The notes: generated by a model not told the origin, from the letters alone. Positions 3,415 through 32,700 are shown, counted from the stretch's first letter. The stretch: 64,000 nt of DNA from an uncultured Chthonomonadaceae bacterium (GCA_963835065.1 CAWIEK010000060.1:64001-128000); one strand, 5' to 3'. Numbers and translations: made by a program.

Positions 3415-5295
3415 TTATCCTCCCACCGCCCAATTCAGCCCCGTATAGCGGCGGTAGCCATAACAGCGGGCGATATGAACGTAGCGGATAGGCGTGGGGC
3501 TGCCGGCGCGGCGGATGGGGAAGGGCGGGTCCCATTCGACGCGCTCAAAGATTTGGCGCAGGTCGTTTACATCGGATTCGCCGTCGTTGAAGAAAATCGC
3601 GTTGTCGCCAAGATGCGCTTCCAATCGTTCCACGTGCGCGGCGTACATCGTCAAGCGCCAGTGCAGGAACATATCGTAAGTGGGCGGATGATCCGGCAGG
3701 TAAAACCCCATCAGGGCGCAATACTGGTAGCCGTTGCCCGCAATAAACACCGGCTGCCCGCTTTTTGCCATGTCCTTCCGAACTTCCTGCACATGCGCCG
3801 CCAAATCGCGCCAGCCATACATCTGCGTAGTCACATCATCTTTAGGCTGCAAGCGTATGCCAACGGCTGACCGCAATTCCGGCGACAGCATCAACACGGT
3901 CAGCAGGGCGCTCGTGAGGAAGATAGTTGATAGTTGATAGTTGATAGTTGATAGAACAGGAAGTGATGAGTGATGAGTGATGAGTGATGAGTGTGCATCC
4001 AATTCATCATTCCTCATTCCGCGTTCAGCATTGTCTTCTGTTCCCTGTTCCCTGTTCCCTGTTCCCTGTTCTTCTGTCTTCTCTTCTTCTTTTCTCTTTT
4101 TCTTCTTTTCTTCCAAGCGAAGCGCCGCCCACCCCGCCCACAAAATAGTCGGCGTGATCCAGGCGCAGGGGGCCCAGTTGGCCTGTACCTGTGACCGCAG
4201 CGCCATCAGACAGAAGAACAGGAGGACGGGGAAGCCGTGACAGAAGAGGAACAAGGTTTCAGGTGTTCGGGTGTTCAGGTGTTCAGATATTGGGTATTCG
4301 GTATTCGGTGTTGCATCGTAGAGTTTGTTTGCTCTGACTTCTTCTGAGGAGGCGCGTGAATACCTGAACACCTGAACACCCGCCGCAACACACGCAAGAA
4401 ACAAGCCGGGGCCGAGCAGGAGGGCTTGCGAACCGATGAATTCACCTAAGCGGGATAGCGGCGTATGTTTGGTTTTGTAGGCCAAGTAGCCCAGATGCCC
4501 GAACGTCCACCAGTGGTGATGCGCGTTCCACCACAGGACACCCACGTACAGCAGCAGGGTTATCAGAAAGGCGGCGTAGGGTTCGGGACGGCGCAGCCAT
4601 TTGCGATGCGGGGGCGAAATCAGCAGGAACAGCAGCAGGCAGGGCAGGAGGAGCAGCATTGTGTGCTTGCTGAGAAACCCCAGCCCGACGGCAAGCCCCG
4701 CCCACAGCCACGCGCGTTTTTGACCGGCTTCGTTGGTTCCGAACAGGGCGCGTTCCAGAAACACGAGCGCCAAAGCCCAGAAGAACACAAGCGGGGGATC
4801 GTAAGTGGCGATAAGGCTGCCGACGGTCAGGAGCGGGGTTGCGGCGAGAAGTACCACCGTCAGAAATCCGGCGAGCGGCGAGAAAATGCGCTTCGCCAGA
4901 ATATACGCGCAGATTAGTGCGCCCAAACAAGAGGCCCATACCCCAATTCTTACCCCGAATTCGTTGGTTCCGAACAGCAGGGTTGTCAGGCGAATCAGAT
5001 AGGCGATGAATGGCCCCTGATCGTAGTATCCCCACGCGAGATGCCGCGACCAATCCCAATAGTAGGCTTCATCCGGCGCGAGTTCCACGCGCCATAATTG
5101 CGTCAGCCGCAGCAGGGAAGTGATTAGCAGGAACCAGAACGTGGCGCGTTCCCAACGGCGTGTTTCGGTGTTCAGGTGTCGGGTGTCGGGTGTCGGGTGT
5201 TCAGGTATTCGGGTGTTCGGGTGTTTGGTATTGGGTGTTTGGGCGTTGTGAAACTCTTTACCGGGATTGATGTTTGTGATTTGGCGTGAAGGCAT
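3415..5295 (-). CDS. Glycosyltransferase family 39/ArnT-like membrane protein with repeat-derived insertions
   Basis: LAPDEAYYWDWSRHLAWGYYDQGP motif and multiple TM helices. ATG at 5295 overlaps the upstream stop (TAATG). Confidence 0.88.
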   Translation of the reverse strand: MPSRQITNINPGKEFHNAQTPNTKHPNTRIPEHPTPDTRHLNTETRRWERATFWFLLITSLLRLTQLWRVELAPDEAYYWDWSRHLAWGYYDQGPFIAYLIRLTTLLFGTNEFGVRIGVWASCLGALICAYILAKRIFSPLAGFLTVVLLAATPLLTVGSLIATYDPPLVFFWALALVFLERALFGTNEAGQKRAWLWAGLAVGLGFLSKHTMLLLLPCLLLFLLISPPHRKWLRRPEPYAAFLITLLLYVGVLWWNAHHHWWTFGHLGYLAYKTKHTPLSRLGEFIGSQALLLGPGLFLACVAAGVQVFRYSRASSEEVRANKLYDATPNTEYPISEHLNTRTPETLFLFCHGFPVLLFFCLMALRSQVQANWAPCAWITPTILWAGWAALRLEEKKKKRKEEEKTEEQGTGNREQGTEDNAERGMRNDELDAHSSLITHHSSLPVLSTINYQLSTIFLTSALLTVLMLSPELRSAVGIRLQPKDDVTTQMYGWRDLAAHVQEVRKDMAKSGQPVFIAGNGYQYCALMGFYLPDHPPTYDMFLHWRLTMYAAHVERLEAHLGDNAIFFNDGESDVNDLRQIFERVEWDPPFPIRRAGSPTPIRYVHIARCYGYRRYTGLNWAVGG

Positions 5296-6128: not shown

Positions 6129-6333
6129 AGATAGTTCCTTCTTCATGGTTGCCTGACTGTCTGTAACTCTCTTCAACCCACAACCTGTCGGCGTGTTTGC
6201 GCAGAAACTTGAAAAATTGCTGACTGTCACAGCATGGCTTGTTTGTTCGTGCTGTATAATGATACCACTGGTTCGGGCGAAAAGTCGTAGCTAAAACAGG
6301 ATAACCCAAATTACGCCCAAAGTCAAAGACCAG

Positions 6334-7272
6334 ATGCAAGTCTCACGGAGAAAAGTGAACACAAAACGTTTTCAACGCGCTGCCTTTTTCGCAGCCCTTT
6401 TAACAATGTATGCGGCGGGATCGCATGTCGCCGCGCAAAATAAGTTTGCTAGTAAGGCTTCCAAGACCAGCATACCCCTGATACATATACCGGCGTTGAG
6501 CCAAAAGGAAGCCGAACCGCCTGCCGATGTTACCACATCCGACGCGCATCACCTGTTCCCCTGGGAACAACATGCGCCGGGCGGGAAGCCGGACTCCCTG
6601 GGCGGTTTCTCGATGGTCAATGTAATCGCGGGAGATAAGCAGCACGGCTTGTCCGTCGTGCAGCTTGTGCGCGGCGATGAGCATCTCAAAGAGATCGCGC
6701 TGACATTTGACGACGGGCCGCATCCGCCGTTTACCGAACGCCTGCTGGACTTGCTCAAGCAATTAGATGTGCGGGCAACCTTCTTCGTTGTCGGGCGCAA
6801 GGTGGACGCCGCGCCGGAGATTCTGGCGCGGATGGTGGCGGAGAAACACGATGTCGCCAATCATACGTATCATCATGTAAACCTGAAAACGTTGCCCTAC
6901 GGACTGGTGGAAAACGAGATTCGGCTGGACAATGACGCCATTCGCCGCGCCTGCGGGAAAGAGCCGGTGTTTTTCCGCCCGCCCGGAGGCCAGCGCAACG
7001 GCGAAGTGGTAGAAATCGCCCGCCGCCTGGGGATGAGTACCCTGTTGTGGACGGACGATCCCGCCGATTATGCCAATCCGGGAGCCGACATTATCGAGGA
7101 AAAACTGCTGCAGCATGTGCGCCCCGGCGCGGTCATCCTGCTGCATGACGGCGTAGAGCAGACCTATCAAATGCTGCCCGACTTGGTTGCCAAATTGCGG
7201 CAGCAAGGCTATAAATTCGTCACCGCCACCGAAATGGCGCAGCACCTGGAGGCGTCCAGTCAGACGAAGTGA
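6334..7272 (+). CDS. Polysaccharide deacetylase (NodB/CE4)
   Basis: ALTFDDGP, NHTYHH, FRPPGG and ILLHDG motifs. Confidence 0.93.
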   Translation: MQVSRRKVNTKRFQRAAFFAALLTMYAAGSHVAAQNKFASKASKTSIPLIHIPALSQKEAEPPADVTTSDAHHLFPWEQHAPGGKPDSLGGFSMVNVIAGDKQHGLSVVQLVRGDEHLKEIALTFDDGPHPPFTERLLDLLKQLDVRATFFVVGRKVDAAPEILARMVAEKHDVANHTYHHVNLKTLPYGLVENEIRLDNDAIRRACGKEPVFFRPPGGQRNGEVVEIARRLGMSTLLWTDDPADYANPGADIIEEKLLQHVRPGAVILLHDGVEQTYQMLPDLVAKLRQQGYKFVTATEMAQHLEASSQTK

Positions 7273-7282
7273 TGAGTGATGA

Positions 7283-10200
7283 ATGATGAATGATGAATAT
7301 AGCGAACAGAAAAATGATGAACGAGGAGTGATAAATGATGAACAAAATACAAATTCCAATTCATCACTCATCACTCATCACTCATCACTTCCTACGTTGC
7401 CTGTCTTTTACGACGAGCAGAAACTGCGCTGGCCCTGGCTGAAGCGCATGGCGGTTGTCGGCGGATTGGTGGGGATTTTGGCGGCTGTTGTATTGGCCGT
7501 CAGTGTTTTTGCGCCTGCGCTGCTGCCGCGCAATCCCCTGCCCCGCGCTACAACCGTGCGCGAAATAGGCAATCAAGACCCGATTCTGTCGCATTTTGAA
7601 CAGCGCCCGCACTTGGCGCAAACCAATCCGCCCATGACGCGCCTGCAGCGTCGGCAATTGGGCGTTAAGTTTACGCGAGACCGCCAGAAACTGGAAGCCT
7701 ACACCCGCCGCGAACAAAGCAAAGCCGCGGAAAACGCCCGCCGCGCGCAGGCGTTCCTCCAGCAATGGCCGAACCAGATAAAAGGGCAGGGCCTCACCGC
7801 CGGCGGCGTCATGCCGTTTGGCTACGAGGACGAAGGGAACAGGGAACAGGGAACAGGGAATAGAAAAGAAGAAGAGAAGAAGAGAAGAGAAGAGAAGGCT
7901 CAACACCCGACACCCGACACCCGACACCCAACACCCGTTGTCGCGGCGTTTTACGTGAACTGGGAAGAAACGTCGTGGGCGTCGGCGCAGCATAACATGG
8001 CGCATTTGACGCACTTTTTGCCGGAATGGCTGCATCTGAAACAAAAGGGCGCGGATGTGGGCAGTTCCAATCCCAAAACCCTGCCGTTTCTGGATGCGCG
8101 GGACGACAAGGACAAAACGGACGTTGTCAATCTGGCGCATAGCAACAGTGTGCCGATTGTGGTTTTGCTCAACAATTATACGCGGCCTAAGAACGAGGAA
8201 GAGGGCGAGGGCAAGTGGGATACGGACGCGGTACACGCGCTCGTTTCTGACCCGAAAGCGCGGCGCAATTTTGCGCGGCAGATGCGCGACTGGCTGCTTG
8301 CCAACAAATTGCAGGGCGTCAACATTGATTTTGAGGAAGTGGCGGAACAGGATCGCGACGGCCTGACGCTGTTTATGCGCGAATTGTATACGGCCCTGCA
8401 CCCCGCGAAATTGCTGGTGACGCAGGACGTGCAGGTGGAAGGCGGGGCGTATGACTTTCCCGGTTTGGCGAAATGGAACGACTGGCTTGTGCCGATGTTC
8501 TACGATGAGCATGAGTCCAGCAGCGGGCCGGGCGCAATCGCGGGCATAGATTGGACGCACAAGCATCTGGACGCGCTGCTGTCGCAGGTAGACCCATCTA
8601 AAGTGGTTATGGCGGTGGGACAGCAAGGCTACGATTGGACAAAGGGCGTGGCGGGAACCGAGTCGCTGCGCTACCAGACCGCAGTGGTTACAGCCAAAGA
8701 GTCTTACGACGGTAAGGGCATGGATGGCGTGATTCGCATGGACCCGGCCAGCCTGAACCCGATGTTTACCTATTCCGAGGATACGCTCGACAAGAACAAT
8801 CAGGCGCGGCAGGAGGAGCATACCGTCTGGATGCAGGATGCCGCCAGCGTGTACAACCAATTGCTGCTCGCCCGCCCGCATGGAATACGCGGCGCGGCGT
8901 TGTGGATGCTCGGCGCGGAAGACCCGACGATTTGGAGCTACTACGACAAAAACCTCTGGAACGGCGATTGGAAGCAGATCGTTGCCGGGGGCGCGCTAAA
9001 TACGATTTCTTACGGCGGAACGGGTGAGATTGACTTCACGGCGGAGGGCGAATTGCTCCAGCCCGTTGCCGAGCCGACAAGCGGACAGCGGACAATCACG
9101 CAGGACCCGAAAACGGGCATGATTACGGCGGAAGCGTACAAGATTGACCCCATAACCAACCGGCCCTTGATGCCGTCTTCCTACATCGTGCGTCGCTACG
9201 GGGGCAAAACGGGCAACCCGGCCAAGCAAATCGTGCTGACGTTCGATGATGGCCCCGACCCAACATATACGCCGCAGATACTCGACATTTTGAAGCGGTA
9301 TCACGTTCCCGCCGCGTTCTTCGTTGTCGGCAAAATGGCGGAAGCCAACCCCAACATCGTGCGGCGGATGTGGGATGAGGGGCACGAAATCGGCAACCAT
9401 ACGTGGGATCACCGCGACCTTGCCGAACTGACGCCCACCCATCAGCAGATTGAATTGACGGCAACGGAGCGCGTGATTCAAGCCCTGACCGGACATTCGA
9501 CAACGCTGTTTCGCCCGCCGTATGGCAACGACGTGGAGCCGACAACGGGGGCGGAAGTGCGCCCGCTCGATCTCGCCGCGCAGATGAACTACCTGACAGT
9601 CGGGCAAAAGATTGATCCGCTGGATTGGGCGCTGTACAAGTTCAAGCCGGGAACCGAGGCTTTTGATTACACGCAGCCCAAAACCGCGCAGGATATTGTC
9701 AATGGCGTGTGGGCGGAAAAGGATCAGGGCAGCATCGTTTTGCTGCACGACGCGGGCGGCGACCGAACGCATACGGTTGCCGCATTGCCGCAGATTATCG
9801 AAAAACTGCGGGCGGGCGGCTATACGTTCGTATCCGTGTCGCAGTTAAGCGGCATACCCCGCGAAAAACTGATGCCACCGATTACGGGTAAGGACATTTA
9901 TCTCGCGGGCGGCGACCGCATGACGTTTGAAGCGGCGTATCTGTTCCAGATTACGCTGACGACCCTGTTCATGCTGTCCATCGTGCTTGGCACTTCGCGG
10001 GTGCTGCTGTTCGTGGGATTGGCGCTGATACAGCGGCAGCGCGAAAAAAAGCGCGTGTTCCCCGTGGGGTTTACGCCTTCCGTGTCGGTCATTATCGCCG
10101 CGTACAATGAGGAAAAGGTCATCGGGCGCACGATACAGGCATTGCTCGACAGCGGCTATCCGAATCTGGAAATCATCGTCGTAGACGACGGCAGCAAGGA

Positions 10201-11149
10201 CAATACAAGTGAAGTGGTGCAGACGCTTTACGGCGACAATCCACTGATAAAATTAATCGTCAAGCCGAACGGCGGCAAAGCGTCCGCCTTGAATCAAGGC
10301 TTGACGGTGGCGACAGGCGACATCATGGTGTCGCTGGACGCGGATACCCTGTTTACCGCCGATACTATCGGGCGGCTTGCGCGGCACTTCATCAACCCGA
10401 AAGTGGGCGCGGTGTCGGGCAACGTGCGCGTGGGCAACACCAACAACATCTGGACGCGCTGGCAGGCCATTGAGTACACGACGAGCCAGAATTTTGACCG
10501 GCGCGGCTATGACCTGCTGAACTGCATCACGGTTGTACCCGGCGCAGTGGGAGCCATGCGGCGCGAGGCCGTGCTTGAGGTCGGCGGGTATACGCACGAC
10601 ACGCTTGCCGAAGACACCGACCTGACATGGAAACTGCGGCGTTCCGGCTGGCGTATCGTCAACGACAACACCGCAATGGCGTACACCGAAGCGCCCGAAT
10701 CGCTGAAGAATCTCGCAAAGCAGCGTTTCCGGTGGGCGTTCGGAACCCTGCAATGCCTGTGGAAGCACCGGGGCGCGTTGGGACAGCACGGCGCGTTCGG
10801 CTGGCTGGCCCTGCCCTCCCTATGGGTGTACCAGATATTGTTCCCGGCCATTTCGCCGTTCATGGACATCGGTATGGTCTGGTCGCTGTGCGCGGGCAAC
10901 GGGGCCAAGTTCGCGCAGTTTTATGTCGCCATGTTCGCGCTGGAGTTTACCGCCGCGCTGATCGCCCTGCGCATGGACCGGGGCAACCTGCGGCTTTTGC
11001 CCTGGCTGTTCTTCCAGCGGTTCTTGTACCGACAGTTGATGTACTACGTCGTCCTCCGCGCCCTGTGGTCGGCTCTGCGCGGCAACGCGGTGGGCTGGAA
11101 CAAATTCGAGCGCACGGGCACGGCGCGGGTGGAAACCAAAACGGCGTAG
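7283..11149 (+). CDS. GH18-like + polysaccharide deacetylase + GT2 (PgaC/IcaA-like) trifunctional protein
   Basis: LQGVNIDFEE (GH18-like), LTFDDGP/NHTWDH/LLHDAG (CE4), IAAYNE/VDDGSKD/LDAD/AEDTD/QRFRW (processive GT2). Exact start is uncertain because it lies in a repeat. Confidence 0.92.
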   Translation: MMNDEYSEQKNDERGVINDEQNTNSNSSLITHHSSLPTLPVFYDEQKLRWPWLKRMAVVGGLVGILAAVVLAVSVFAPALLPRNPLPRATTVREIGNQDPILSHFEQRPHLAQTNPPMTRLQRRQLGVKFTRDRQKLEAYTRREQSKAAENARRAQAFLQQWPNQIKGQGLTAGGVMPFGYEDEGNREQGTGNRKEEEKKRREEKAQHPTPDTRHPTPVVAAFYVNWEETSWASAQHNMAHLTHFLPEWLHLKQKGADVGSSNPKTLPFLDARDDKDKTDVVNLAHSNSVPIVVLLNNYTRPKNEEEGEGKWDTDAVHALVSDPKARRNFARQMRDWLLANKLQGVNIDFEEVAEQDRDGLTLFMRELYTALHPAKLLVTQDVQVEGGAYDFPGLAKWNDWLVPMFYDEHESSSGPGAIAGIDWTHKHLDALLSQVDPSKVVMAVGQQGYDWTKGVAGTESLRYQTAVVTAKESYDGKGMDGVIRMDPASLNPMFTYSEDTLDKNNQARQEEHTVWMQDAASVYNQLLLARPHGIRGAALWMLGAEDPTIWSYYDKNLWNGDWKQIVAGGALNTISYGGTGEIDFTAEGELLQPVAEPTSGQRTITQDPKTGMITAEAYKIDPITNRPLMPSSYIVRRYGGKTGNPAKQIVLTFDDGPDPTYTPQILDILKRYHVPAAFFVVGKMAEANPNIVRRMWDEGHEIGNHTWDHRDLAELTPTHQQIELTATERVIQALTGHSTTLFRPPYGNDVEPTTGAEVRPLDLAAQMNYLTVGQKIDPLDWALYKFKPGTEAFDYTQPKTAQDIVNGVWAEKDQGSIVLLHDAGGDRTHTVAALPQIIEKLRAGGYTFVSVSQLSGIPREKLMPPITGKDIYLAGGDRMTFEAAYLFQITLTTLFMLSIVLGTSRVLLFVGLALIQRQREKKRVFPVGFTPSVSVIIAAYNEEKVIGRTIQALLDSGYPNLEIIVVDDGSKDNTSEVVQTLYGDNPLIKLIVKPNGGKASALNQGLTVATGDIMVSLDADTLFTADTIGRLARHFINPKVGAVSGNVRVGNTNNIWTRWQAIEYTTSQNFDRRGYDLLNCITVVPGAVGAMRREAVLEVGGYTHDTLAEDTDLTWKLRRSGWRIVNDNTAMAYTEAPESLKNLAKQRFRWAFGTLQCLWKHRGALGQHGAFGWLALPSLWVYQILFPAISPFMDIGMVWSLCAGNGAKFAQFYVAMFALEFTAALIALRMDRGNLRLLPWLFFQRFLYRQLMYYVVLRALWSALRGNAVGWNKFERTGTARVETKTA

Positions 11150-11278
11150 GGGATGTTGAACCACCAAGAAATACAAAGAAGACATAAACCACGGGGAACA
11201 CGGGGGACACGGGGAGGATAAGGGGAAAGCAGGGCTATGCGTTAGTCCTGCTTTCTTCTTTATCTCATAAATAGAGGA

Positions 11279-12238
<960 letters not shown>

Positions 12239-17654: not shown

Positions 17655-17702
17655 GCGAAGAAGCAAGGAACGGATACAGTACCCGTTCCTTGCTTCTTTC
17701 GC
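17655..17702. terminator. Hairpin terminator between convergent genes
   Basis: AAGAAGCAAGGAACGG / CCGTTCCTTGCTTCTT stem. Confidence 0.75.
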
Positions 17703-18208: not shown

Positions 18209-20635
18209 ATGGAAAATAACACCAACCCCGCTCTCTCAGCAACGCCCGCGTTTACGCCGCTCACGCTGAAAGCCGTTTTTGAAGACAAGATTTTCGACGC
18301 CAAACAACTGCGTCAGCCGCATTGGATGAAGGACGGCAGGCGATTTTGTTTTCTGGACATTCTGCCCAATACCGAAATCGTCACCGTCTGGATGTACGAC
18401 GTGGATAAGGGCGAACGCGCCCCCCTGATTTTTGCCGACGCGCTGAAACAGGCGTGGAAAGCAAATACAAGTCAAGAGGCGATAGCTAACCAACAGGAAG
18501 CGAGCCAACAAGAACTAAATCAACAAGCAACAAGTCAGCAAGCCGAAGCGAGGCAGCAGGAAGCAAATCAGCAAGACGTCAGCGTCGGTCAAGAAGCAAG
18601 CGCCGGTCAAGATGGAAAAACGGACAAGGGCAAGGAAGACGCGCTTGTCATTCACGGCTACCAGTGGTCGCCGGATGAAACGCGCCTGCTGTTGGCGCGT
18701 CTGCCGCGCCCGCACGATGCAGAAGGCGATAAGGCGCTGTACATCTACACGCCTGTCGCGCAACATCTGGAATGTATCGCGCAAACCGAGCAGGAATACC
18801 GCAACGTGAAATGGTCGCCGGACGGACGCTGTTTGGGTTACGTAAAGGCGGATGACCTTTACCTGCTCGATCTGGAAACCAAAACCGAAACCCGGCTTAC
18901 CGACACGGCCTCGCCGAGCCGGTACAACGGACGCTTCGGTTGGGTGTATCAGGAAGAACTCGATCTTGTAGACGGCTGGGCATGGTCGCCGGACGGCAAG
19001 TGGATCGCGTACTGCGAGTGCGACGAAAGCGCGGTTCCCCTCGTTCCCCTCACGCGCTACGAAACCCTCCACCTCGAACCCGAACTCCAGCGCTACCCCA
19101 AAGCCGGCGACCCGAACCCTGTTGTGCGCGTCGGCTGCATCAACGTAGGGAACCGGATAAACCACGGGGAACACGGGGAACACGGGGAGGAAGAAAAGGG
19201 AGAGATACAAGATACAAGATATAAGATACAAGAAGGGCACTCCCTATCAACTATCAACTATCAACTATCAACTGAAGACTCTTCCTCCTCTGACTACCTT
19301 GCCGGATTCCATTGGACGCCGGACAATCAACTGCTGGTACAGCGGATTCCCCGGCTGCAAAATACGCTGCATTTGCTGCGTCTCGATCCGGCGACGGGCG
19401 AAAGTACGCTCCTGCTGACAGAAACGGACCCGGCGTGGGTGGATGCGCGGGGCAAGATTGTGTTTGTTGGGGAGACAGGGGAATGGCTGTGGCCTTCGGA
19501 CCGGGACGGGCACAATCACTTGTATTTATATGACCGTGATGGCGCTTTGCTACGGCAAGTGACGGCGGGGGCGTGGGATGTGGAAGCGCTGCTCGGCGTG
19601 GATGCCGAACAAAGGACAGCGTTCTTCAGCGCGGCGCGGCAGAACGTTTCTCAGCGCGAATTATGGGCTGTTTCGCTGGATGGAAGTGAACCGAAGCAAA
19701 TTTCGCAAGCAGCAGGCTTCCATCGCGCCCTGTTTGCCCCGGACGGCAAATTGTACTTGAATACCGTTTCCACGCGGGCTGCGCCGCCACATACGGATTT
19801 GCGGCAGGCGGATGGAAGCCTGATTGCGCAAATTCTGGACAATCCCCTGCCGCAGTTGGAAGCGTATCGCGCCGGAATGGGGCAGTGGGAGTTTACTTCC
19901 TTTCAAACTGCGGACGGCATGACGCTGAACGCCATGCTGCTGCGTCCGCCGGATTTCGATCCGTCGCGCAAGTATCCCGTTTTGATGTACACGTATGGCG
20001 GACCGAACTCGCAGGTGGTATTGGATACATGGGGCAGCAGGGTGGGATTAGAGCAGCTATTGGCGCAGCAAGGCTACATTCTTGCGCTTGTGGACGGGCG
20101 CGGTTCCGGGATGCGAGGGCGCGAGTTCAAGAAATGTACCTATCTAAACCTGGGCAAGTATGAAGTGGAGGATCAGATTGCGGGCGCGAAATGGCTGGCC
20201 CAATTGCCGTATGTGGATGAAGAGCGCATCGGTATCTGGGGCTGGAGTTACGGCGGCTACATGACGTGCCTGTGCCTGCTGCATATAGCGGACGTGTTCA
20301 AAGCAGGCGTGGCGGTTGCGCCCGTGACCGACTGGAAACTCTACGACAGCATTTACACGGAACGCTACATGCGCCGCCCCGAAGACAACCCGGACGGCTA
20401 CGCGCAATCTGCGCCGCTCACCCATGCCGAGCAATTAAAAGGCCGCTTCTTGCTGATGCACGGCCTGGACGACGACAATGTACACTTCCAAAACGCCGCG
20501 CAACTTGCCGCGCTGTGGCAACAGCGCAACAAGCCCTTTCAAATGATGGCCTATCCCGGCAAGCATCACGGCCTGGAAGACGTCGCGCCGCACTGGTCAC
20601 AGATGTTTACCGAGTTCATTCTGGCGAACCTGTAA
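18209..20635 (+). CDS. Dipeptidyl peptidase IV-like S9B peptidase with two low-complexity insertions
   Basis: GWVYQEEL, RYPKAGDPNP, YGGP, GWSYGG, HGLDDDNVHFQN and YPGKHH. Confidence 0.93.
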   Translation: MENNTNPALSATPAFTPLTLKAVFEDKIFDAKQLRQPHWMKDGRRFCFLDILPNTEIVTVWMYDVDKGERAPLIFADALKQAWKANTSQEAIANQQEASQQELNQQATSQQAEARQQEANQQDVSVGQEASAGQDGKTDKGKEDALVIHGYQWSPDETRLLLARLPRPHDAEGDKALYIYTPVAQHLECIAQTEQEYRNVKWSPDGRCLGYVKADDLYLLDLETKTETRLTDTASPSRYNGRFGWVYQEELDLVDGWAWSPDGKWIAYCECDESAVPLVPLTRYETLHLEPELQRYPKAGDPNPVVRVGCINVGNRINHGEHGEHGEEEKGEIQDTRYKIQEGHSLSTINYQLSTEDSSSSDYLAGFHWTPDNQLLVQRIPRLQNTLHLLRLDPATGESTLLLTETDPAWVDARGKIVFVGETGEWLWPSDRDGHNHLYLYDRDGALLRQVTAGAWDVEALLGVDAEQRTAFFSAARQNVSQRELWAVSLDGSEPKQISQAAGFHRALFAPDGKLYLNTVSTRAAPPHTDLRQADGSLIAQILDNPLPQLEAYRAGMGQWEFTSFQTADGMTLNAMLLRPPDFDPSRKYPVLMYTYGGPNSQVVLDTWGSRVGLEQLLAQQGYILALVDGRGSGMRGREFKKCTYLNLGKYEVEDQIAGAKWLAQLPYVDEERIGIWGWSYGGYMTCLCLLHIADVFKAGVAVAPVTDWKLYDSIYTERYMRRPEDNPDGYAQSAPLTHAEQLKGRFLLMHGLDDDNVHFQNAAQLAALWQQRNKPFQMMAYPGKHHGLEDVAPHWSQMFTEFILANL

Positions 20636-22175: not shown

Positions 22176-22184
22176 AGTGAGCAT

Positions 22185-23725: not shown

Positions 23726-23946
23726 GGGTTCGTAGCGCCAAATCCGCGCTGACAAAAGCAAAGTCTATTCTCTCTGTCGTTCCTTTCACCCGCGCCAACA
23801 CTGCCGATAGACACCACCGCACACTTACATGAAACCGCTTCCACCGCAACCCTTGTCTGAGATGTCTATTAGTACCGCTGCGACATCCTGTTGGCCGCCA
23901 CCCGTATTGCAACGGGAAGTCCTGCAAGCGTTGGAAGAGCGGTAAG

Positions 23947-24312: not shown

Positions 24313-24508
24313 GCGTCGCGCGGGGAACGAGGAAGGGGCACTTGCTAACTTACCAATAATGGTAATTGAATATTGAGCAATTACATAAGAATTAAGTTGC
24401 GTTAGCCCTGTTGTCTTCGCCGCTTCGCCCGAAGTTGGGTACGAAATACGGGTATAATATTAAGTAAGCAACAATTCACAACAGGGGTAAAAGGACACAG
24501 AAGTCGTT

Positions 24509-26986
24509 ATGAGCCAGAACGCCACTCCGGGAATAGGGACTCGCGCCTTCATCAGCCACAACAGCAAGGACAAACCGTTTGTTCGCACTCTGGAAGCCGA
24601 TTTGCAAGCGAATGGTTGCACGGCCTGGGTGGACGAAAACCAGATGTATGCGGGCGATTCGCTGCTGCAAGGAATTTCAACCGGCCTGCAGAACAACGGT
24701 TACGTACTTGCCGTATTTTCAGCCCATTTTGCGGCGTCGAATTGGGCGCAACAAGAAATTTCGGCAGCAGTTGCTATGCAAAACAGTGGCAAGGGAATCA
24801 AAGTCATTGTCTTGCGGCTCGATGATACACCTTTGCCTGCTTTGCTGCAAGGCAGTATCTACGTTGATTTTCGCGGCGATTATACTGCCGGCCTGAACCA
24901 ACTCCTCCGCGCGCTCACCCGTCCCGTTGCCACACCCATACAAGCCCCCGTCACTTTGTCTGTAGACCGTGCCAAACTTGTTGCGGTACTCAATAGTTTG
25001 GATAGCGTGTCGCTAACAAGCGTCATCAATCACATTGCTGGTGCGGGTACGCATGACAGTCCTCTACAGCCCGTGCCAATACGAGTTCAGGCGTTGCTCG
25101 GATTTGCCGAAGGCGCAGTCGGGCCTGGCCTGAACGCGGTTGCATCCGTCGTTGTGCAGTTGTTCCCTAATACGGCCTCTAAAATCGGCCCTTTCCGTTA
25201 AGCCCTGCCGTTTCCGGCACAACGACAGGGCGTTCGACACTGCCAACATTCAATGCGTACTTTACGGGACGTGAATGCCAGATGAACGACTTGCGCACTG
25301 CTCTGACAAGTGGCGGATCGGCGGCGGTGACGCAGGCGATCTCCGGTTTGGGCGGCGTGGGGAAAACCGCGCTTGCCGTCGAGTACGCGCATATTTATCG
25401 TGACCACTACGATACGCTGCTTTTTGCCCTCGCTGACTCCATTACCTCGCTGAACAGCGCTTATAAAGCTATCGCCGCGCAGTTGGGATTGCCGCAGGCC
25501 GCAAGCGATGATTTTGAAGTTGTGGCACAGGCGGTAAAACACCATCTGAACACGGCAACGCCCTCCCGCAAAGGCATTACACCTTACCTGTTGATTTTGG
25601 ACAACGCCGACTTTGGCACAACGCTCAAGCCCAACGATCTAAAAAGATTTCTACCCAATACCCCGACCGGTCATGTGCTGCTGACAACGCGCGCTCAAGT
25701 CCTGCATGGCGGGTTGGGTGTAAAGCCAAACCACGTCCTGCGCCTGGACGTAATGGTGGAGGAAGAGGCGTTTCGTTTTCTGGCAGAGCGCGTAGGCGGC
25801 GAGGGCGCGATACGGACGGGCGATGAGGCAACAGCGGCCTCAGAACTGGCGCGTGAGTTAGGGTATCTGCCGTTAGCGCTGGAGCAGGCGGCGGCCTACA
25901 TCGCGCAGCCAAGTCGTACCTTTCGCAACTACCTGAACCTGTACCGCAAGCGTTCGATTGAGGTTGTGGAACGCAACGCGCCGGAAACGGGAGATTATAA
26001 CAAAACAGTAGCGACGACGTGGCAAATCAGTTTTGATGAGGTAGAGCGCGAATGTTCGGCGGCGGCGGACTTGCTGCGCCTGTGCGCGTTTGTTGCCCCG
26101 GACTCTATCCCCATAGAAGTGATTTTAGCAGCAGCGAACGGTGAGGTGGAAAGCATTACGACGTTCTTTGGAATTTTGGAAGATACTGAAGTCAACAAGG
26201 ACAATGGCAATACTTTGCTGCAAGCGCTGGCACGTTACTCCCTGATAATGTGGAAGCATGAGTCGCATACGTTCAATGTGCATCGGTTGGTGCAGGCTGT
26301 AACACGCTGGCAGATGAAAGCGGATATACGGCAAGCATGGATAAAACAAGCAGTAAACGTCTTGAACTTGGCATTTCCGAACTCTGATTTTGAGAATTGG
26401 ACACGATGTGAACGACTAACTGCTCACGCACAAGCACTAGAGAAATTGTCTCAGAAAAGACGAGCATTGCAGCGACTCGGTAACACTGCTGGGCCGCATC
26501 GCTTCTTACTTGTATCAGCGTGGGCGCTATGAGGAAGCGGAGCCACTTTATAAAGAGGTATTAGCAGTTTATCGGAAAAATTTACTCTCAAATCACCGAG
26601 AATTTGCTGTTTATCTTAACAATCTGGCAGTGCTTTATAATACGCAGGGGCGTTATGTAGAGGCAGAAGCACTAATCAACGAAGTGTTAGCATTACGGCG
26701 TAAGAACCTGCCGGAAAATCATCCCGATGTTGCAAACAGTCTTAACAATCTGGCAGCAGTTTACCATAAGCAGGGGCGCTATGTGGAAGCCGAGGTTTCC
26801 TACAAAGAAGCCGTAGTTATTCTGCGCATTAAATTTGGAGATGACCATCCAAATACAAAATTTGTCGCTGAGAACCTGAAAACATTCCTTGCTGAGAAGA
26901 AAGAGCGTACTGCCTTTGTGCAACATTTCAAACTGCCGACTTCACTTTCAAAACAGCGGCAATACCGTTTGAAACGGCCCAAATAA
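24509..26986 (+). CDS. TIR-helical-NB-ARC-TPR NLR-like protein, split by two apparent frameshifts (about 25183 and 26455)
   Basis: TIR (AFISHNSKDKPFV, SNWAQQE). The NB-ARC frame is open from 25183 and reads NAYFTGRE...GLGGVGKT...LILDNAD...GYLPLALEQAAAYI...HRLVQ, followed by LNNLA TPRs. Confidence 0.82.
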
Positions 26987-27005
26987 AACTGGCGGGAGTA
27001 AACCT

Positions 27006-27400
27006 ATGTCCTTAACCATCACGCTGCCGAATGAATTGGAACAGTTTCTGCAAAACCATGCGCAGCGCGCCGGAATTCCCGTTGAAACGCTGCTTGCGCG
27101 CACGATTGTCGAGCGGTGGGAGAGTGTCCGTCGCGCTCCCGGTCTGCCGAACCGCGAAAGTGAACTGTTGCTGCGTTTGCAAACCCTGTTCCCTCCGAGC
27201 AGACGGACGAATATCGCGCGCTTTGTGCCAAAAGCGATGCCGGAACGCTCGCCCCGATGGAGCGGGAATGGTTGTTTGCGCTCCTCGAACAGCGCGACCA
27301 TCAGAACGCTGAACGCCTCGAAATCGTCGCCGAACTCGCGCATCTGCGCGGCATTTCCTTGCGCGAAATGATGGCGCAATTAGGAATTCGACCGGAGTAG
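27006..27400 (+). CDS. Small antitoxin-like protein (apparent frameshift about 27195)
   Basis: MSLTITLP N-terminus. The alternative frame continues EQTDEYRAL...NAERLEIVAELAHLRGISLREMMAQLGIRPE to TAG at 27400, just before the HNH gene. Confidence 0.7.
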
Positions 27401-27406
27401 CGCTGT

Positions 27407-27829
27407 ATGGCGGTTGTTTCCGAAGCGATACGCGCACAGGTCGTGACGCAGGCTGGCGGCGTTTGCGAATACTGCCGCTACCCGGAGGAGTTCAATTCCG
27501 GGCGGTTCGCTGTAGACCACATCCTCCCGCGCGTTCTTGGCGGCGCAGATAACTTGAACAATCTTGCGCTTTCGTGCCGCAATTGTAACAAGCGCAAGCA
27601 GGACGCGACGGAAGCGCAAGACCCCTTGACGGAAGAAAGTGTCCCGCTGTTTCACCCACGTCGAGATCGTTGGGAAGACCATTTCGCATGGAGTGACGAT
27701 TTTCGTCATATTATCGGCCTGACCCCAACCGGACGCGCGACCATTGCCCGATTACAAACAAACCATAGTGGCGTCGTCCGGCAGCGCGAAGTATTACATC
27801 AATTGGGATTGCACCCCGTACCCGAATAA
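27407..27829 (+). CDS. HNH endonuclease
   Basis: CEYC, VDHILP, NLALSCRNCN, PLFHPR, GLTPTGRATI. Confidence 0.92.
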   Translation: MAVVSEAIRAQVVTQAGGVCEYCRYPEEFNSGRFAVDHILPRVLGGADNLNNLALSCRNCNKRKQDATEAQDPLTEESVPLFHPRRDRWEDHFAWSDDFRHIIGLTPTGRATIARLQTNHSGVVRQREVLHQLGLHPVPE

Positions 27830-27966
27830 AGCAAAAACAAAACGATGCTCACCCTTTGTGGCTTGATGTGGCTGCCGCGCTTCCTGTACTGCTGTTCATA
27901 GCAGGACTTCACCACTCCTTTCGCTAATCTCTCCTTGTTGAAATCTAACGACAAGGAGATTGTTTT

Positions 27967-29530
27967 ATGCCCCTCAAGATTGCCATGATTGGAGCCGGTT
28001 CTATCGGCTTTACGCGCCGCCTGATGGCCGATTTGCTTACCGTGCCCGAATTTGCCGACACCACCTTTGCTTTCACCGACCTCAACGCCCACAACCTGGA
28101 TATGGTGAAGCAGTTGGCGGAACGCGACATTGCCCACAACAACCTTCCCGCTAAAATCCAGTCCACGACGGATCGCCGCGCCGCTATTGCCGATAGCGAT
28201 TACGTGATCTGCATGATCCGGCAGGGCGGGCTGGAAGGCTTTCAAACCGACATTGACATTCCGCTCAAGTACGGCATTGACCAGTGCGTGGGCGACACCA
28301 TTTGCGCGGGCGGCATCATGTACGCGCAGCGCGGCATTGCGGCCCTGCTGGACTTCTGCAAGGATATACGGGAAGTCGCCAAACCCGGCGCGTTGTTCCT
28401 CAACTATTCCAACCCGATGGCGATGCTGACGTGGGCGTGTAACAAATACGGCGGCGTGAAAACCGTCGGCCTGTGTCACGGCGTGCAGGGCGCGCAGCAC
28501 CAGATTGCCGACTGCGTGACCCATTGGGCAAAGGGGCAGAAACTCATCGGGGAAGACGAGAAAGTCCACCGCCGCGATATTGAGTTCACGTTCGCGGGCA
28601 TCAATCATCAAACGTGGTGCCTGAAAGCGCAGTGGCGCGAGTATGATTTAATCCCCATGCTGCTCGGCCTGTTCCAATCCCATCCCAAGTACCCGACAAC
28701 CGAAAAAGTCCGCATTGACGTGCTGAAACGCTTCGGCTACTATTCGCACGGAAAGCAACGGGCATTTGTCCGAGTACGTGCCCTGGTATCGCAAGCGCCT
28801 GGACGAAATCAACAAGTGGATTGACCTCAGCACCTGGATCAACGGCGAAACGGGCGGGTATCTGCGCGTCTGCACGGAAGGCCGCAACTGGTTCGAGACG
28901 GACTTTCCCAATTGGCTGCAGCAGGAACCGCCCACGTTCACGCCCGACAAGCGCAGCGACGAACACGGCTCTTATATTATCGAAGGGCTGGAAACCGGGC
29001 GGACGTACCGGGGCCACTTCAACGTGCCGAACACGGGCATCATCACCAACTTGCCCGATGGCTGCATCATCGAATCATTGGGGTTTGTGGATCGAAACGG
29101 GATGCACATGGCGCACATCGGCGAACTGCCCTTAGCCTGCGCCGCAACCTGCAATGTCAGCGTCAGCGTACAGCGCATGGGCATGGAAGCCGCTGTTCAT
29201 GGCGACGTGACGCTCTTGAAGCAGGCCATGCTCCACGACCCCCTTGTCGGAGCCGTGTGCGACCCCGAAGAAGTGTGGCAAATGACGGACGAAATGCTCG
29301 TGGCGCAGGCGGAGTGGCTGCCGCAGTACGAGGCAAAAGGGGAAAGTGAAAAGGCGAAAGCCAGACTTGCCGAAGCGGAAGCGAACGGAACCCGCGTCAA
29401 GACGATGGAAGGCTTTGCAGGCATGGCGCGGCTGCACACCAAAACCGTCGAGGAGATGGCCGCGCAAAAGGAGGAAGCCCGCAAGAACGCGCAGGCTGCC
29501 GACAAAGGCAAAATGACGCAGAATGCGTAA
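27967..29530 (+). CDS. melA: Family 4 glycoside hydrolase (alpha-galactosidase/glucosidase), apparent +1 frameshift about 28747
   Basis: IGAGSIGF, DQCVGDT, LNYSNPM, GLCHGV, AGINHQ. The conserved YSTESNGHLSEY is restored by removing one C. Confidence 0.88.
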
Positions 29531-29735
29531 AAGCCGGTGGGTATAGCAGTTGGGTGTCGGTGCAGATGGAGTGCGAGAGATTGTCGAGAAGGAATATGAA
29601 ATGTCGGGTGTCGTGAAGGAAAATAGAGAAGGAATCCGTTACTCGGCGTCGAATGATACCGATAACGAAGTCGCCTGACGTGTCCCGACACCCGACACCC
29701 GATACCCGACGACCCTTCCTAAAGGACAGCCGTAA

Positions 29736-32700
29736 ATGACCCCCACAGTACCGAAGCAGACGAGTCATTTTACATCACGGGGGGAACGCTTCCGCCCGAT
29801 GCGCGTTCCTACATCGCCCGCGATGCCGACGACGCCCTGTACAACGCCCTGCTTGCCGGCGAAACCTGCTACGTCCTCAACAGTCGGCAGATGGGCAAAA
29901 GCAGCCTGTGCGTTCGCGCAATGGGCAGGCTGCAAGACGCGGGGGCGCGTACCGTTTTCCTCGATCTGTCCAAGTTCGGCGCCAATAACCCGACCGTAGA
30001 ACAATGGTACTTTACGCTCCTCAACGAAATCGGCAGGGAACTCGATTGTCGCCCCGCCCTGTTCGCGTACTGGAAGCAAAATGACGCCCTGCCGTTCGTG
30101 CAGCGCGTGTTCGGCGCTCTGACCGACATCGCGCTGCCCGCCGCCCCCTCCTCCATCGTCGTGTTTGTGGACGAGATTGACATCACGCGGACGCTGCCGT
30201 TCGAGACGGACGAGTTCTTTGCCGCGATACGGCAACTCGTGGTGGGCAGAGCAACGGACGCGAAGCTGAAGAAGTTGGCGTTCTGTCTGTTGGGAACCGC
30301 CGCGCCGCAGGACCTCATTCAAAACACGGCCATCACGCCCTTCAATGTCGGCAAGCGCGTGGAAGTGACGGACTTTACCCCGCAGGAAGCCGCGCCCCTT
30401 GCAGAAGGATTGAACCACGGGGGACACGGGGAACACGGGGGAAAGCGGGAAAGGGAAAGCAGGGGAGAGAAACTGCTGCAACGGGTATTGTATTGGACCA
30501 ACGGCCACCCCTACCTGACGCAACGCCTATGCAGCGCCATAGTCGAAGCCCAAACTCCTCCTCCGACACCCGACACCCGAAACCCGATACCCTCTCCTCG
30601 ACACCCGACACCCGACACCCGACACCCTCCGTGGACTCCCTCTGCCACAACCTCTTCCTCTCCCACGCGGCGACGGAAAGCGACGACAACCTTGCCAATG
30701 TGCGCAACCGCCTGCTCAAAAACGACGCGGACATGGCTTCGCTGCTCACGCTGTACGGGCAGATACGGGAAGGCAAGCGCGTACCGGATGACGAAACCAA
30801 TCCCCTCTGCGCGTTGCTAAAGTTGAGCGGCGTGGCGAAAGTGGAAAACGGTTTGTTGAAGGTACGCAACCGCATCTACGCGACCGTGTTCGATGCGAAG
30901 TGGGTCACAACCCACATGCCGGACGCCGAACTGCGACGGCAGAAGGAAGCGTACCGCAAAGGCGTGACGCGAACAGGAGCGTGGGCGGGAGCGATTATCA
31001 CGTTGTTTGTCTGTCTCGCCGCGTTCGCCTTCTCCAAAGCCAACGAAGCCCAAAGCAATGCAAGAGAGGCTCACAAACAGACCAGGTTGGCGCAGCAAAA
31101 TGCGCAGTTGGCACAACGAAATGCTGAGAAGGAGACTGCTGCCCGCGCCGACGCCGACAAAAGCGCGCAGCAGGCTCGTAACAATGCGCAGAAAGCACAG
31201 AAGCAGACACAACTCGCCAAACAACGTTTGAAGGACGTACAAAAAGCCAACTCGGCTACCCAAAAGGCTCTCACGAAAGCACAGCAAAATGCCATAGAAG
31301 CTAGGAAACAGGCACATCTTGCCTCCGACAACGCCCGTCGCGCGGAGCAGGCCAACGGCAATGCTTCCAAAGAGAGCGCGACACGCTCGCAAGGCAGAGC
31401 AACTCGCGCTAGAAGAGAAAGACAAAGCCAACCACAACCTGTACGTTGCCAACATGAACCTGATACAAAGGGATTGGGACAACAACAATGTCGGGAGTGT
31501 ATTGGAGTTGTTGGAAGCGACACGCCAACGATACTCCCACGAGTTCGAGTGGGGATACTGGAACCGCCAGTGTCATCTGGATTTGAAAACGCTCAAAGGG
31601 CATACAGACGATGTTGATGCCGTCGCCTTCTCTGCCGACGGCAAGCGGATTGTCACGGGCAGCAGCGACAAAACGGCGAAGGTATGGGATGCGCAAACCG
31701 GACAGGTAACACTTACGCTCAATGGGCATACGAACTTTGTTACTGCCGTCTGCTTCTCTCCCGATGGCAAGCGGATTGTCACAGGCAGTTGGGACAAAAC
31801 GGCCAAGGTGTGGGACGCGCAAAGCGGACAGCCACTGCTCACGCTCAAAGGGCATACAGACAATGTTGATTCCGTCTGCTTACTCTCCCGATGGCAAGAG
31901 GATTGTCACGGGAAGTAGGGACAACACAGCGAAAGTGTGGGATGCGCAAACCGGACAGGAAATACTTACGCTCAAAGGGCATACTCCCAGTTACTATGCC
32001 GTCGCCTTCTCTCCCGATGGCAAGCGGATTGTCACAGGTGGTTACGACAAGACGGCGAAGGTGTGGGACGCGCAAAGCGGACAGCCACTGTTCACGCTCA
32101 AAGGACATACAAACGATATTGATGCCGTACGCCTTCTCGCCCGATGGCAAGAGGATTGTCACAGGCAGTAGGGACAAAACAGTGAAGGTGTGGGATGCGC
32201 AAACTGGGCAGGAAACACTCACGCTCAATGGGCATACAAACGATGTCCTTGCCGTTGCCTACTCACCAGATGGCAAGAGGATGGTCACAGGCAGCTGGGA
32301 CGACACGGCGAAGGTGTGGGACGCCCAGAGTGGACAGGAGACACTTACGCTCAAAGGACATACTAGTTTTGTTACTGCCGTCGCCTTCTCTCCCGATGGC
32401 AAGAGAATCGTGACGGGTAGTTGGGACAAAACAGTGAAGGTGTGGGATGCGCAAACTGGACAGGAAACACTTACACTCAAAGGACATACGAACACTATCG
32501 CCGCTGTTGCCTTCTCGCCGGATGGCAAGAGGATTGTCACGAGTAGCGGAAATGTTTTTTCAGGTGGTTACGACAAAACGGCGAAGGTGTGGGACGCGCA
32601 AAGCGGACAGCCACTGCTCACGCTCAAAGGACATACGAACTTTGTTACTGCCGTCGCCTTCTCTCCCGATGGCAAGAGAATCGTGACGGGTAGTAATGAC

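What the first reader, a model, noticed from the sequence alone, without database searches (positions are those of the whole stretch)
3920..30630. Mosaic 7-9-nt tandem-repeat cassettes inserted in frame into many unrelated proteins
Seen: short arrays of 3-5 units from a shared vocabulary are strung together inside coding sequences. (GGGAACA)n gives GNREQGT, (CACCCGA)n HPTPDTR, (TCATCAC)n SSLITHH, (CTATCAA)n LSTINYQ, (GGCAATC)n GNRQSAI, (CAGAAGA)n QKTEDRR, (GATACAA)n DTRYKIQ and (CACGGGGAA)n HGE. Locations: GT39 (3920-4112, 4258-4381, 5162-5245), GH18-GT2 (7835-7937), CbiX (11672-11779), DPP-IV (19150-19290) and AAA_35 (30413-30470, 30562-30627). Units whose reverse strand contains stops (TTGATAG, GTGATGA) appear inside genes only in the stop-free orientation. 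Established: similar heptamer STRRs occur in filamentous cyanobacteria, largely intergenic. Inference: an active repeat-seeding process that creates protein loops. The mechanism is unknown and no responsible enzyme is visible here.
Basis: partly seen in the sequence, partly recalled or inferred. Interest (0 to 1): 0.78.

Follow-up and report, generated by a model that had tools for sequence, protein, structure and literature searches.

The report
Heptamer hairpin arms rewriting protein loops
About 160 genes of this bacterium carry extra in-frame segments built from 7-base repeats, and these are mixed left and right arms of a hairpin family that elsewhere brackets a small four-helix-bundle gene, likely copied between sites and likely kept inside genes only where they read as floppy, water-loving loops.

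Summary
The arrays are real: 258 exact 7-mer arrays per Mb against 1.5 in a Markov control. Eight of nine cited cassettes are in frame. The second AAA_35 array is frameshifted in this assembly but in frame in a related contig. The arrays are not free-standing STRRs. They are polarised left (L) and right (R) arms of ~120-nt hairpins, mostly intergenic and starting at a stop codon. The same arms bracket all three four-helix-bundle (TIGR02436/PF05635) genes of the genome; 8-10-mer arms bracket its three GxxExxY genes. Inverted arms flank 32 of 76 such genes in other phyla, against 0 of 1184 controls. Inside genes (177 cassettes, 161 gene models) the L-then-R order is kept, but the arms are usually mismatched and read in the hydrophilic orientation, which explains the mosaics. 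Relatives often carry different words in the same loop, and junctions recur in unrelated loci, so arms are likely copied and overwritten in place. RT and HUH genes carry no such arms. A causal role for the four-helix-bundle protein is inferred only. I did not find this link in print. The scan noted both the cassette and in-frame heptamers before, on other genomes. New variant of a known kind.

The parts
3920..4112 (-). In-frame cassette in GT39 (PMT_2) gene 3415-5295: purine tract, L arm (GGGAACA)n 4038-4071, spacer, R arms (TCATCAC)n 3962-3993 and (CTATCAA)n 3922-3954
   Evidence: G001 and G002 have cassettes with mostly other words in the same loop; its L-arm junction recurs 14 times in the genome
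4258..4382 (-). Matched 8-mer hairpin (GGTGTTCA / TGAACACC arms) read in frame in GT39
   Evidence: inverted repeats I7, I8, I11; same family in G002, no repeats in G001
5162..5245 (-). R-type arm (CACCCGA-like) in the predicted N-terminal extension of GT39; translation depends on the start codon
7266..7391 (+). Matched hairpin (TGATGAR)n ... (TCATCAC)n starting at the stop codon of the deacetylase gene; the R arm reads SSLITHH if the ATG at 7283 is used
   Evidence: 33-nt arms, 94% complementary; z -5.67; both arms carry another word in G002; peptide kept in P0007
7834..7937 (+). In-frame chimeric cassette in GH18-deacetylase-GT2 gene 7283-11149: L (GGGAACA)n, purine tract, R (CACCCGA)n
   Evidence: left arm differs and right arm is kept in the 96%-identical P0007
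11150..11270 (.). Intergenic (CACGGGGRA)n arm of the GxxExxY type between convergent genes
   Evidence: same arm upstream of a GxxExxY gene in L080
11672..11779 (-). In-frame cassette in the linker between the two CbiX domains (gene 11279-12238): L (CAGAAGA)n, L (GGGAACA)n, R (GGCAATC)n
   Evidence: other words in G002, none in G001 and ten more relatives; L-R junction found 13 times in the genome
12240..12501 (.). Intergenic GxxExxY-type arms ((ACACAGAG)n and a 52-nt inverted pair)
19150..19290 (+). In-frame cassette in a beta-propeller loop of DPP-IV (18209-20635): (CACGGGGAA)n, (GATACAA)n, R (CTATCAA)n; it also replaces a strand motif conserved in relatives
   Evidence: pLDDT <50 at residues 319-348 and 354-359, model mean 82.3
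29540..29710 (+). Decayed gene-less hairpin (GGGTGTC ... CACCCGA) just after the GH4 stop codon; relative G021 has a full four-helix-bundle cassette after the orthologous gene, G001 has none
30413..30470 (+). In-frame (CACGGGGRA)n arm in the AAA_35 gene
   Evidence: one 9-nt unit fewer in a contig of run X2
30562..30627 (+). R arms (CACCCGA)n in the AAA_35 gene; reading frame broken here in this assembly
   Evidence: in frame in a bridging contig of run X2
47073..47159 (+). Matched (AGGCATT)n hairpin at the junction of two co-directional genes, the typical form of the element (outside the finding's range)

Best explanation
The in-frame cassettes are gene-less, mismatched left-plus-right arms of a hairpin repeat family whose gene-bearing form brackets a four-helix-bundle or GxxExxY gene; the arms are likely copied between sites and overwritten in place, and likely survive inside genes only where the frame holds and they read as a flexible hydrophilic loop. 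Steps. (1) Shown: the unit is L arm (about 4 heptamers), spacer, R arm, with fixed polarity; intergenic copies mostly begin at a stop codon between co-directional genes. (2) Shown: the same arms, in the same polarity, bracket four-helix-bundle genes here and across phyla, and such cassettes are present, gene-less or absent at orthologous junctions. (3) Shown as a pattern, mechanism inferred: arms and arm-spacer junctions recur in unrelated loci and single arms change at fixed sites, which points to short-tract gene conversion plus slippage by whole units. (4) Inferred: a matched hairpin in a gene forces one arm into its stop-bearing or hydrophobic reading, so selection leaves chimeras of a benign L word and a benign R word. 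(5) Inferred, untested: the four-helix-bundle pentamer binds its arms as RNA or single-stranded DNA and promotes their spread or upkeep.
For: Pairing: 699 of 2489 arrays have a reverse-complement partner within 300 bp (label shuffles mean 47.7, max 76); gap peak 50-75 nt; left-arm bias 65:1, 62:0, 19:0. Neighbouring arrays of different words: LR 100, RL 2, LL 40, RR 44. Arm length mode 4 units, 15 of 2066 reach 6 or more; 263 of 326 intergenic L-R cassettes lie between co-directional genes, and 207 of 326 measured distances to a stop codon are within 10 nt. 3 of 3 PF05635 and 3 of 3 PF13366 genes of G000 have inverted arms. By eye 17 of 21 PF05635 loci in relatives and at least 11 of 19 GxxExxY loci do too. 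Other phyla: 63 of 76 loci with an arm, 32 with an inverted pair, controls 0 of 1184. 18 of 18 L-class heptamers of G000 fit a profile of 64 other-phyla arms better in L orientation. A G000 cassette is absent at the orthologous junction in G001 and G002. Coding cassettes: 115 of 177 read L then R and none R then L; 17 of 125 multi-array ones have matched arms against 307 of 530 elsewhere; for all ten listed units with no stop on either strand the hydrophilic reading is preferred, e.g. 93:11, 26:0, 23:0, 21:0. Turnover: in 21 of 43 orthologue pairs the relative has its own repeat at the site (one shares a word), and 17 of 43 lack repeats and are >=8 aa shorter (counted by hand). One arm of a GxxExxY cassette differs between G000 and G002 while the other is shared. 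23 of 135 coding spacers have a near-identical partner elsewhere, shuffles 0-4. Array load per Mb: G000 258, G002 135, G023 130 (gene found); G001 17, G013 0 (not found). Coxiella's 23S IVS has GACAGAT heptamers before its S23p ORF (PMC4990558, passages).
Against: No activity of the four-helix-bundle protein was tested and none is known to be catalytic. G015 has 62 (GGGAACA)n matches and G001 14 with no such gene found by two profiles (G015 has 940 contigs). Half of the 18 genomes with the gene have few arrays of the probed type, and G005's word occurs only within 15 kb of its gene; cognate arrays were seen in the flanks of only 8 of 50 other-phyla loci. Several top words of G000 (CTATCAA, AGGCATT, AAGGATG) have no cognate gene in this 92%-complete assembly. 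No four-helix-bundle remnants lie in the gene-less spacers, and spacers of matched hairpins are mostly unique (6 of 120 above 0.85 similarity), so whole elements are not recent clonal copies. No target-site duplication at the one empty site examined. L words are purine-rich, so the 18-of-18 profile result may partly reflect composition. Protein-to-word covariation was weak and uncorrected for kinship (z up to about 7). No raw reads or RNA data.
Confidence: 0.58

Rival explanations
1. The arms are host-maintained hairpins (mRNA processing or insulation sites) that spread by ordinary recombination; four-helix-bundle and GxxExxY genes merely ride inside some of them and do nothing for their spread.
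For: Position right after stop codons inside operons; the Coxiella IVS stem is cut by RNase III and S23p appears not to be made in vivo (PMC4990558, passages); arrays occur in G001 and G015 without the gene.
Against: Two specific small gene families, and not the RT or Y1 genes, are armed. All 9 genomes with 20 or more TNAG-periodic matches (pattern plus reversed pattern; threshold set after seeing the data) have the gene, and none of 23 without it reaches 20 (kin not independent).
Confidence: 0.2
2. Each array arises locally by polymerase slippage with a 7-nt bias and is then filtered by selection; there is no copying between loci.
For: A slippage origin of heptamers is the published proposal as reported in PMC4679880 (passages); whole-unit length change is seen; adjacent words often differ by one base.
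Against: Does not explain inverted pairing, fixed polarity, the 4-5 unit cap, junctions found 13 and 14 times, or words that follow the genome rather than the gene.
Confidence: 0.08
3. A reverse transcriptase or HUH (RAYT-like) transposase acting in trans seeds the cassettes.
For: The architecture resembles REPINs (PMC3116915, passages); G000 has two RTs and Y1 genes; PF05635 proteins resemble Avd, which works with an RT (PMC10053308, passages).
Against: These genes are not bracketed by the arms; the two full Y1 genes have their own ordinary palindromes. G035 has 154 array matches and no Y1 hit, while G008, G017, G018 and G024 have Y1 and 0-1 matches. RT distribution across relatives was not tested.
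Confidence: 0.08
4. The coding arrays are contingency loci that switch genes on and off by 7-nt slippage.
For: One cassette coincides with a frameshift; a 7-nt step shifts the frame.
Against: Arrays are short (mode 4 units); the unit-number change seen was an in-frame 9-mer and the frameshift is one base, not seven; several nearby genes without arrays are also split; host genes are functionally unrelated.
Confidence: 0.04
5. The arrays are an assembly artefact.
For: The assembly has several split genes; the source reads were not available.
Against: An independent ENA protein keeps two of the repeat peptides; contigs of two other runs cross or enter the arrays; relatives have cassettes at the same sites.
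Confidence: 0.02

Closest known systems
Bacterial heptamer repeats: cyanobacterial STRR (Mazel 1990, not held, recalled), Xanthomonas/Nostoc arrays (PMC4692102, passages), TAACTGA arrays (PMC4679880, passages)
   Same: 7-nt units, preference for four units, mostly intergenic near stop codons, a minority inside ORFs, stop-free orientation in genes; origin called unexplained in the passages read.
   Different: Here the arrays are shown to be polarised L/R arms, tied to four-helix-bundle genes, with 177 chimeric coding cassettes. The Beggiatoaceae paper has no hit for 'four helix', 'S23', 'IVP', '23S' or 'GxxExxY'.
S23p-encoding intervening sequence (IVS) of 23S rRNA, Coxiella (PMC4990558, passages)
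   Same: PF05635 ORF in the loop of a stem; tandem heptamers upstream of the ORF, of a word class also abundant in G000; unit number varies between strains.
   Different: Here the cassettes sit between or inside protein genes, are mostly gene-less and number over a thousand; RNase III excision untested.
REPIN/RAYT system (PMC3116915, passages) and intragenic REP/RPE elements (PMC3733652, passages; Ogata 2000 recalled)
   Same: Inverted doublets with a variable spacer, a small gene flanked by its own repeats, in-frame copies adding 20-80 aa to unrelated proteins.
   Different: Arms are tandem heptamers, not palindromic GTAG/CGTC REPs; the flanked gene is not an HUH transposase; coding copies are chimeras whose arms change at fixed sites.
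Nostoc trnL intron P6b stem-loop (PMC4476775, passages)
   Same: A stem built of 7-nt motifs in which one motif class has repeatedly replaced the other; its Class II motif NNTGAGT matches a G000 word.
   Different: One RNA site, with no link drawn to a gene family in the passages read; here the switch is genome-wide and reaches protein sequence.
DGR accessory protein Avd
   Same: Weak profile match of both G000 proteins tested (32.9 and 28 bits); closest solved relatives 2GSC and 2RLD have five chains each.
   Different: Far below the Avd cut-off of 80 bits; no RT beside the genes.

Membership tests
STRR-type heptamer repeats | Dispersed short tandem arrays of 7-nt units far above chance | tested here: met
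   258/Mb vs 1.5/Mb
STRR-type heptamer repeats | Mostly intergenic, about four units | tested here: met
   947 of 1491 intergenic; mode 4 units
STRR-type heptamer repeats | Identity with the three named Calothrix STRR words | not tested
   Mazel 1990 not held
S23p/PF05635 IVS-like element | PF05635/TIGR02436 ORF between inverted arms | tested here: met
   3 of 3 genes in G000; the window's own cassettes are gene-less
S23p/PF05635 IVS-like element | Located in 23S rRNA | tested here: not met
   The three G000 copies lie between protein genes; no Rfam hit in the window; G000 rRNA genes not inspected
S23p/PF05635 IVS-like element | Excision of the RNA by RNase III | not testable with these tools
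   no RNA holder listed
REPIN/RAYT | Inverted doublets with preferred spacing that fold as hairpins | tested here: met
   z -5.67 for 7270-7400; four coding chimeras fold weakly (z -2.1 to +0.8)
REPIN/RAYT | Cognate HUH tyrosine transposase flanked by the same repeat | tested here: not met
   Y1 genes carry other palindromes; distribution does not track
REPIN/RAYT | Short palindromic REP with GTAG/CGTC tag | tested here: not met
   arms are tandem 7-10-mers
MITE / classical non-autonomous transposon | Near-identical whole copies with target-site duplication | tested here: not met
   spacers mostly unique; no duplication at one empty site
Diversity-generating retroelement | Avd above cut-off next to an RT with TR/VR | tested here: not met
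   scores below cut-off; the two RTs lie on other contigs; TR/VR not searched
Phase-variable contingency locus | Frame-shifting unit-number alleles within a population | tested here: inconclusive
   only contigs of relatives available; one in-frame 9-nt difference, one 1-nt difference

The most novel reading that the evidence does not exclude
Four-helix-bundle (Avd-like) pentamers are sequence-specific binders of their own 4-5-unit heptamer arms and drive a transposase-free, template-directed rewriting of such arms across the genome, with GxxExxY proteins running a parallel 8-10-mer system. This would name the long-sought source of bacterial heptamer repeats and make it a standing generator of new loop sequence in hundreds of proteins.
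Probability: 0.22. Interest if true: 0.86.

Novelty: new variant of a known kind. Interest (0 to 1): 0.6.

Why it matters
Heptamer repeats have been an unexplained feature of many bacterial genomes since 1990, and TIGR02436 and GxxExxY are large families without a function. Reading the arrays as left and right arms tied to these genes turns both puzzles into one bench question: does the protein bind its own arm and promote its copying? The coding cassettes also show about 2.5% of one genome's gene models gaining loops from repeat DNA, with orientation following hydrophilicity and content turning over between 96%-identical orthologues. In practice these peptides create false homology: CbiX hit 49 places in its own genome, mostly through the repeat segments.

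Tried and rejected
Rfam scan of the window: no hit. Sequencing runs: no close holder (share <=0.10), no RNA holder listed, only contigs, so no read-level polymorphism. Search for four-helix-bundle remnants in all six frames of G000: only the three genes. Protein-to-word covariation on 74 loci: top signals at invariant columns with single outliers and in the loop after NIAEG; uncorrected for kinship, inconclusive. Single-sequence CbiX model poor (mean pLDDT 60.9); it only places the insert in a low-confidence linker. G002 orthologues of GT39 and GH18 are frameshifted in that assembly, so DNA alignments were used. A wider unbiased array census in about 25 more relatives could not be made; fixed patterns were counted instead, which miss other words. 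Literature: nine searches, with terms such as 'GxxExxY'+'repeat' (1 unrelated paper) and 'four helix bundle protein' with repeat terms (no listed paper held the phrase), found no account of the gene-arm link or of chimeric coding cassettes. Elhai 2008, Mrazek 2007 and Mazel 1990 were not held and may already describe intragenic heptamers. No supplements were read. The organism's lineage was not identified by any search.
Full report
Observation. An exact-repeat scan of the window finds 20 arrays of period 7 against 10, 9, 3 and 1 of periods 5, 6, 8 and 9, at the coordinates given. The window is G000:C60:64001-128000 of an 8.0-Mb, 71-contig genome that holds 2066 exact 7-mer arrays of at least 2.5 copies. 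That is 258 per Mb against 1.5 in a 5th-order Markov control. Pfam confirms the five host proteins and the translations give the stated peptides. One of the nine cassettes, 30562-30627, is not in frame in this assembly. A 350-nt contig of another run bridges it with one extra base and is in frame, and another contig of that run lacks one 9-nt unit at 30424. Neighbouring genes without arrays are also split, so an assembly indel is likely.

The arrays are arms. Of 2489 arrays of period 7-10, 699 have a reverse-complement array of the same word within 300 bp; 50 label shuffles gave a mean of 47.7 and a maximum of 76. Direct partners are depleted (22 against 46.7). The gap peaks at 50-75 nt and each word has a fixed side, for example 65:1, 62:0 and 19:0 (examples). 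Adjacent arrays of different words keep the order: LR 100, RL 2, LL 40, RR 44. Arms have four units as a mode and rarely reach six (15 of 2066). Of 326 intergenic L-R cassettes, 263 lie between co-directional genes, and 207 of 326 measured distances to a stop codon are within 10 nt. With my own gene model (6431 genes, 74% coverage), 947 of 1491 cassettes are intergenic, 211 overlap a gene edge, 156 are terminal or weakly supported, and 177 are internal to coding sequence. Random placement gives 332 intergenic and 617 internal.

The gene-bearing form. All three PF05635/TIGR02436 four-helix-bundle genes of G000 sit between an L arm that starts at the upstream stop codon and its reverse complement. 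Their words are (GGGAACA/GGTTACA), (AGTAGTC) and (GGAGAAAA), all abundant in the genome. The three GxxExxY genes (PF13366; TIGR04256 confirmed for two) have inverted 8-10-mer arms. A GxxExxY gene of G002 carries the CACGGGGRA arm that reads HGE in DPP-IV and AAA_35. In relatives I read both arms by eye at 17 of 21 PF05635 loci and inverted arms at no fewer than 11 of 19 GxxExxY loci. A scan of GTDB genomes returned 80 loci from many phyla. Four were dropped for short flanks; 63 of 76 have a 7/8-mer arm and 32 an inverted pair, against about 3% per side and 0 pairs in 1184 control positions. All 18 L-class heptamers of G000, defined only by pair order in G000, score better in L orientation against a profile of 64 of these arms, though composition may contribute. 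The G000 C8 cassette is absent from the orthologous junction in G001 and G002, where a short spacer and no duplication are seen. Of ten relatives' cassettes compared, G000 has a gene-less hairpin or arm after the orthologous upstream gene in five, nothing in three, and no orthologue found in two; one of the five is window 29540-29710.

Why coding cassettes are mosaic. The 177 internal cassettes fall in 161 gene models (a few are duplicated contigs). 115 read L then R and none R then L. Only 17 of 125 multi-array ones have matched arms, against 307 of 530 elsewhere. The bias is as strong where neither strand has a stop, and there it favours the hydrophilic reading in all ten such units listed: NREQGTG over PCSLFPV 93:11, NRQSAIG 26:0, NTQHPTP 23:0, KTEDRRQ 21:0. 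A matched hairpin must present both readings, so I infer that selection leaves a benign L word joined to a benign R word of another family. Four such chimeras fold weakly as RNA (z -2.1 to +0.8), while the matched hairpin at 7270-7400 gives -5.67. In an AlphaFold2 model of DPP-IV from 18 sequences (mean pLDDT 82.3) the cassette is the unmodelled loop between two propeller strands. In CbiX it lies in the inter-domain linker.

Turnover. The DPP-IV loop is 38-43 aa in 15 of 18 other relatives, 48-56 aa without repeats in three, and 67 aa in both G000 and G002 with no word in common; in G000 the repeats also replace a conserved strand motif. At 7266-7391 both arms differ in step between G000 and G002. 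A 96%-identical orthologue of the GH18-GT2 protein from another assembly has a different L arm and the same R arm. I compared the 177 cassettes with 2.2 Mb sampled from G001, G002 and G023 and obtained 43 pairs, including one duplicated gene and some probable paralogues. In 21 the relative has a repeat of its own at the site (one shares a word), in 17 it has none and is at least 8 aa shorter, and five fit neither (counted by hand). In one G023 pair the word is the arm word of G023's own four-helix-bundle cassette. Non-repetitive junctions are shared: the CbiX L-R junction occurs 13 times and a GT39 junction 14 times within two mismatches, while five other probes gave 1-2 hits. 23 of 135 coding spacers have a near-identical partner elsewhere (shuffles 0-4). 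Spacers of matched intergenic hairpins are mostly unique. This fits copying of arms and short tracts onto existing sites better than clonal transposition of whole elements or purely local slippage.

Does the gene track the repeats? Sampled 7-mer load per Mb is 135 in G002 and 130 in G023 (gene found), 17 in G001 and 0 in G013 (not found). With one 7-periodic pattern and its reverse, 9 of 18 genomes with the gene and 0 of 23 without reach 20 matches (overlapping matches, threshold set afterwards, kin not independent). Against a strict dependence: G015 has 62 and G001 14 (GGGAACA)n matches without the gene, G005's word stays beside its gene, and several top G000 words lack a cognate gene in the assembly. 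HUH Y1 genes do not track and carry other palindromes. The two RTs are not bracketed by arms. A residue-to-base code, suggested by an earlier scan note, was inconclusive here.

Known background. Read as passages: PMC4692102 and PMC4679880 (heptamer arrays, four-unit preference, near stop codons, some intragenic, mechanism open); PMC4990558 (Coxiella IVS with heptamers before S23p, RNase III excision, protein probably not made); PMC4476775 (repeated switch between 7-nt motif classes in a Nostoc intron stem); PMC3116915 and PMC3733652 (REPINs; intragenic REP/RPE); PMC10053308 (PF05635 resembles Avd); PMC10910872 (legend mention only). Mazel 1990, Mrazek 2007, Elhai 2008 and Ogata 2000 are recalled, not read. 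Nine searches found no account of the gene-arm link (see Tried and rejected). I reached the link, before looking at scan notes. Those notes report the cassette in 235 findings and in-frame heptamers in 107 findings on other genomes; they are not independent support.

Verdict. Real, and largely explained at the level of anatomy. It works like a REPIN or IVS system but fails membership of REPIN/RAYT, MITE and DGR. The copying step is inferred from pattern and the role of the four-helix-bundle protein is untested. New variant of a known kind; interest 0.6.

Noticed in passing
window 3100-3412: Copy of a separate ~300-bp dispersed repeat family (171 blastn pieces in G000; many in G002), here with a (CTATCAA)n array inside it. 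Scan notes e1-9895131 and e1-8417203 appear to treat this family.
   Followed up: partly
window 24509-32757: Several genes split into adjacent ORFs (TIR, NB-ARC, TPR; GH4; AAA_35-WD40), suggesting indel errors or a decaying island of STAND-type genes.
   Followed up: no
G000 C19:8329-8673 (L064) vs L062: GxxExxY cassette shared with G002 in which the left arm belongs to a different, locally abundant word family while the right arm matches G002's pair.
   Followed up: partly
L061, L071, L077, L078: Some GxxExxY genes are flanked by direct or tandem hairpin repeats rather than one inverted pair.
   Followed up: no
L310 (G023) and G000 C24:82657-83577: Small two-gene modules that look like toxin-antitoxin pairs (by eye, not scanned) occupy junctions where relatives have a four-helix-bundle cassette.
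   Followed up: no
window 18460-18620 (DPP-IV residues about 85-135): A second, Gln/Ala-rich segment absent or shorter in G001 and G002, not built of heptamers.
   Followed up: no
L013-L016 and other CbiX loci: In several relatives the two CbiX domains lie in separate reading frames, so the linker that holds the cassette may derive from a former intergenic spacer.
   Followed up: no
G000 C27/C29, C1/C31, C13/C14/C63: Apparently duplicated genes across contigs, which slightly inflate the counts.
   Followed up: no
G000 C49:681660 and C50:52695: Two reverse transcriptases, unclassified here.
   Followed up: partly
window 50616-50743 and 17658-17698: Inverted repeats unrelated to the heptamer words.
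   Followed up: no
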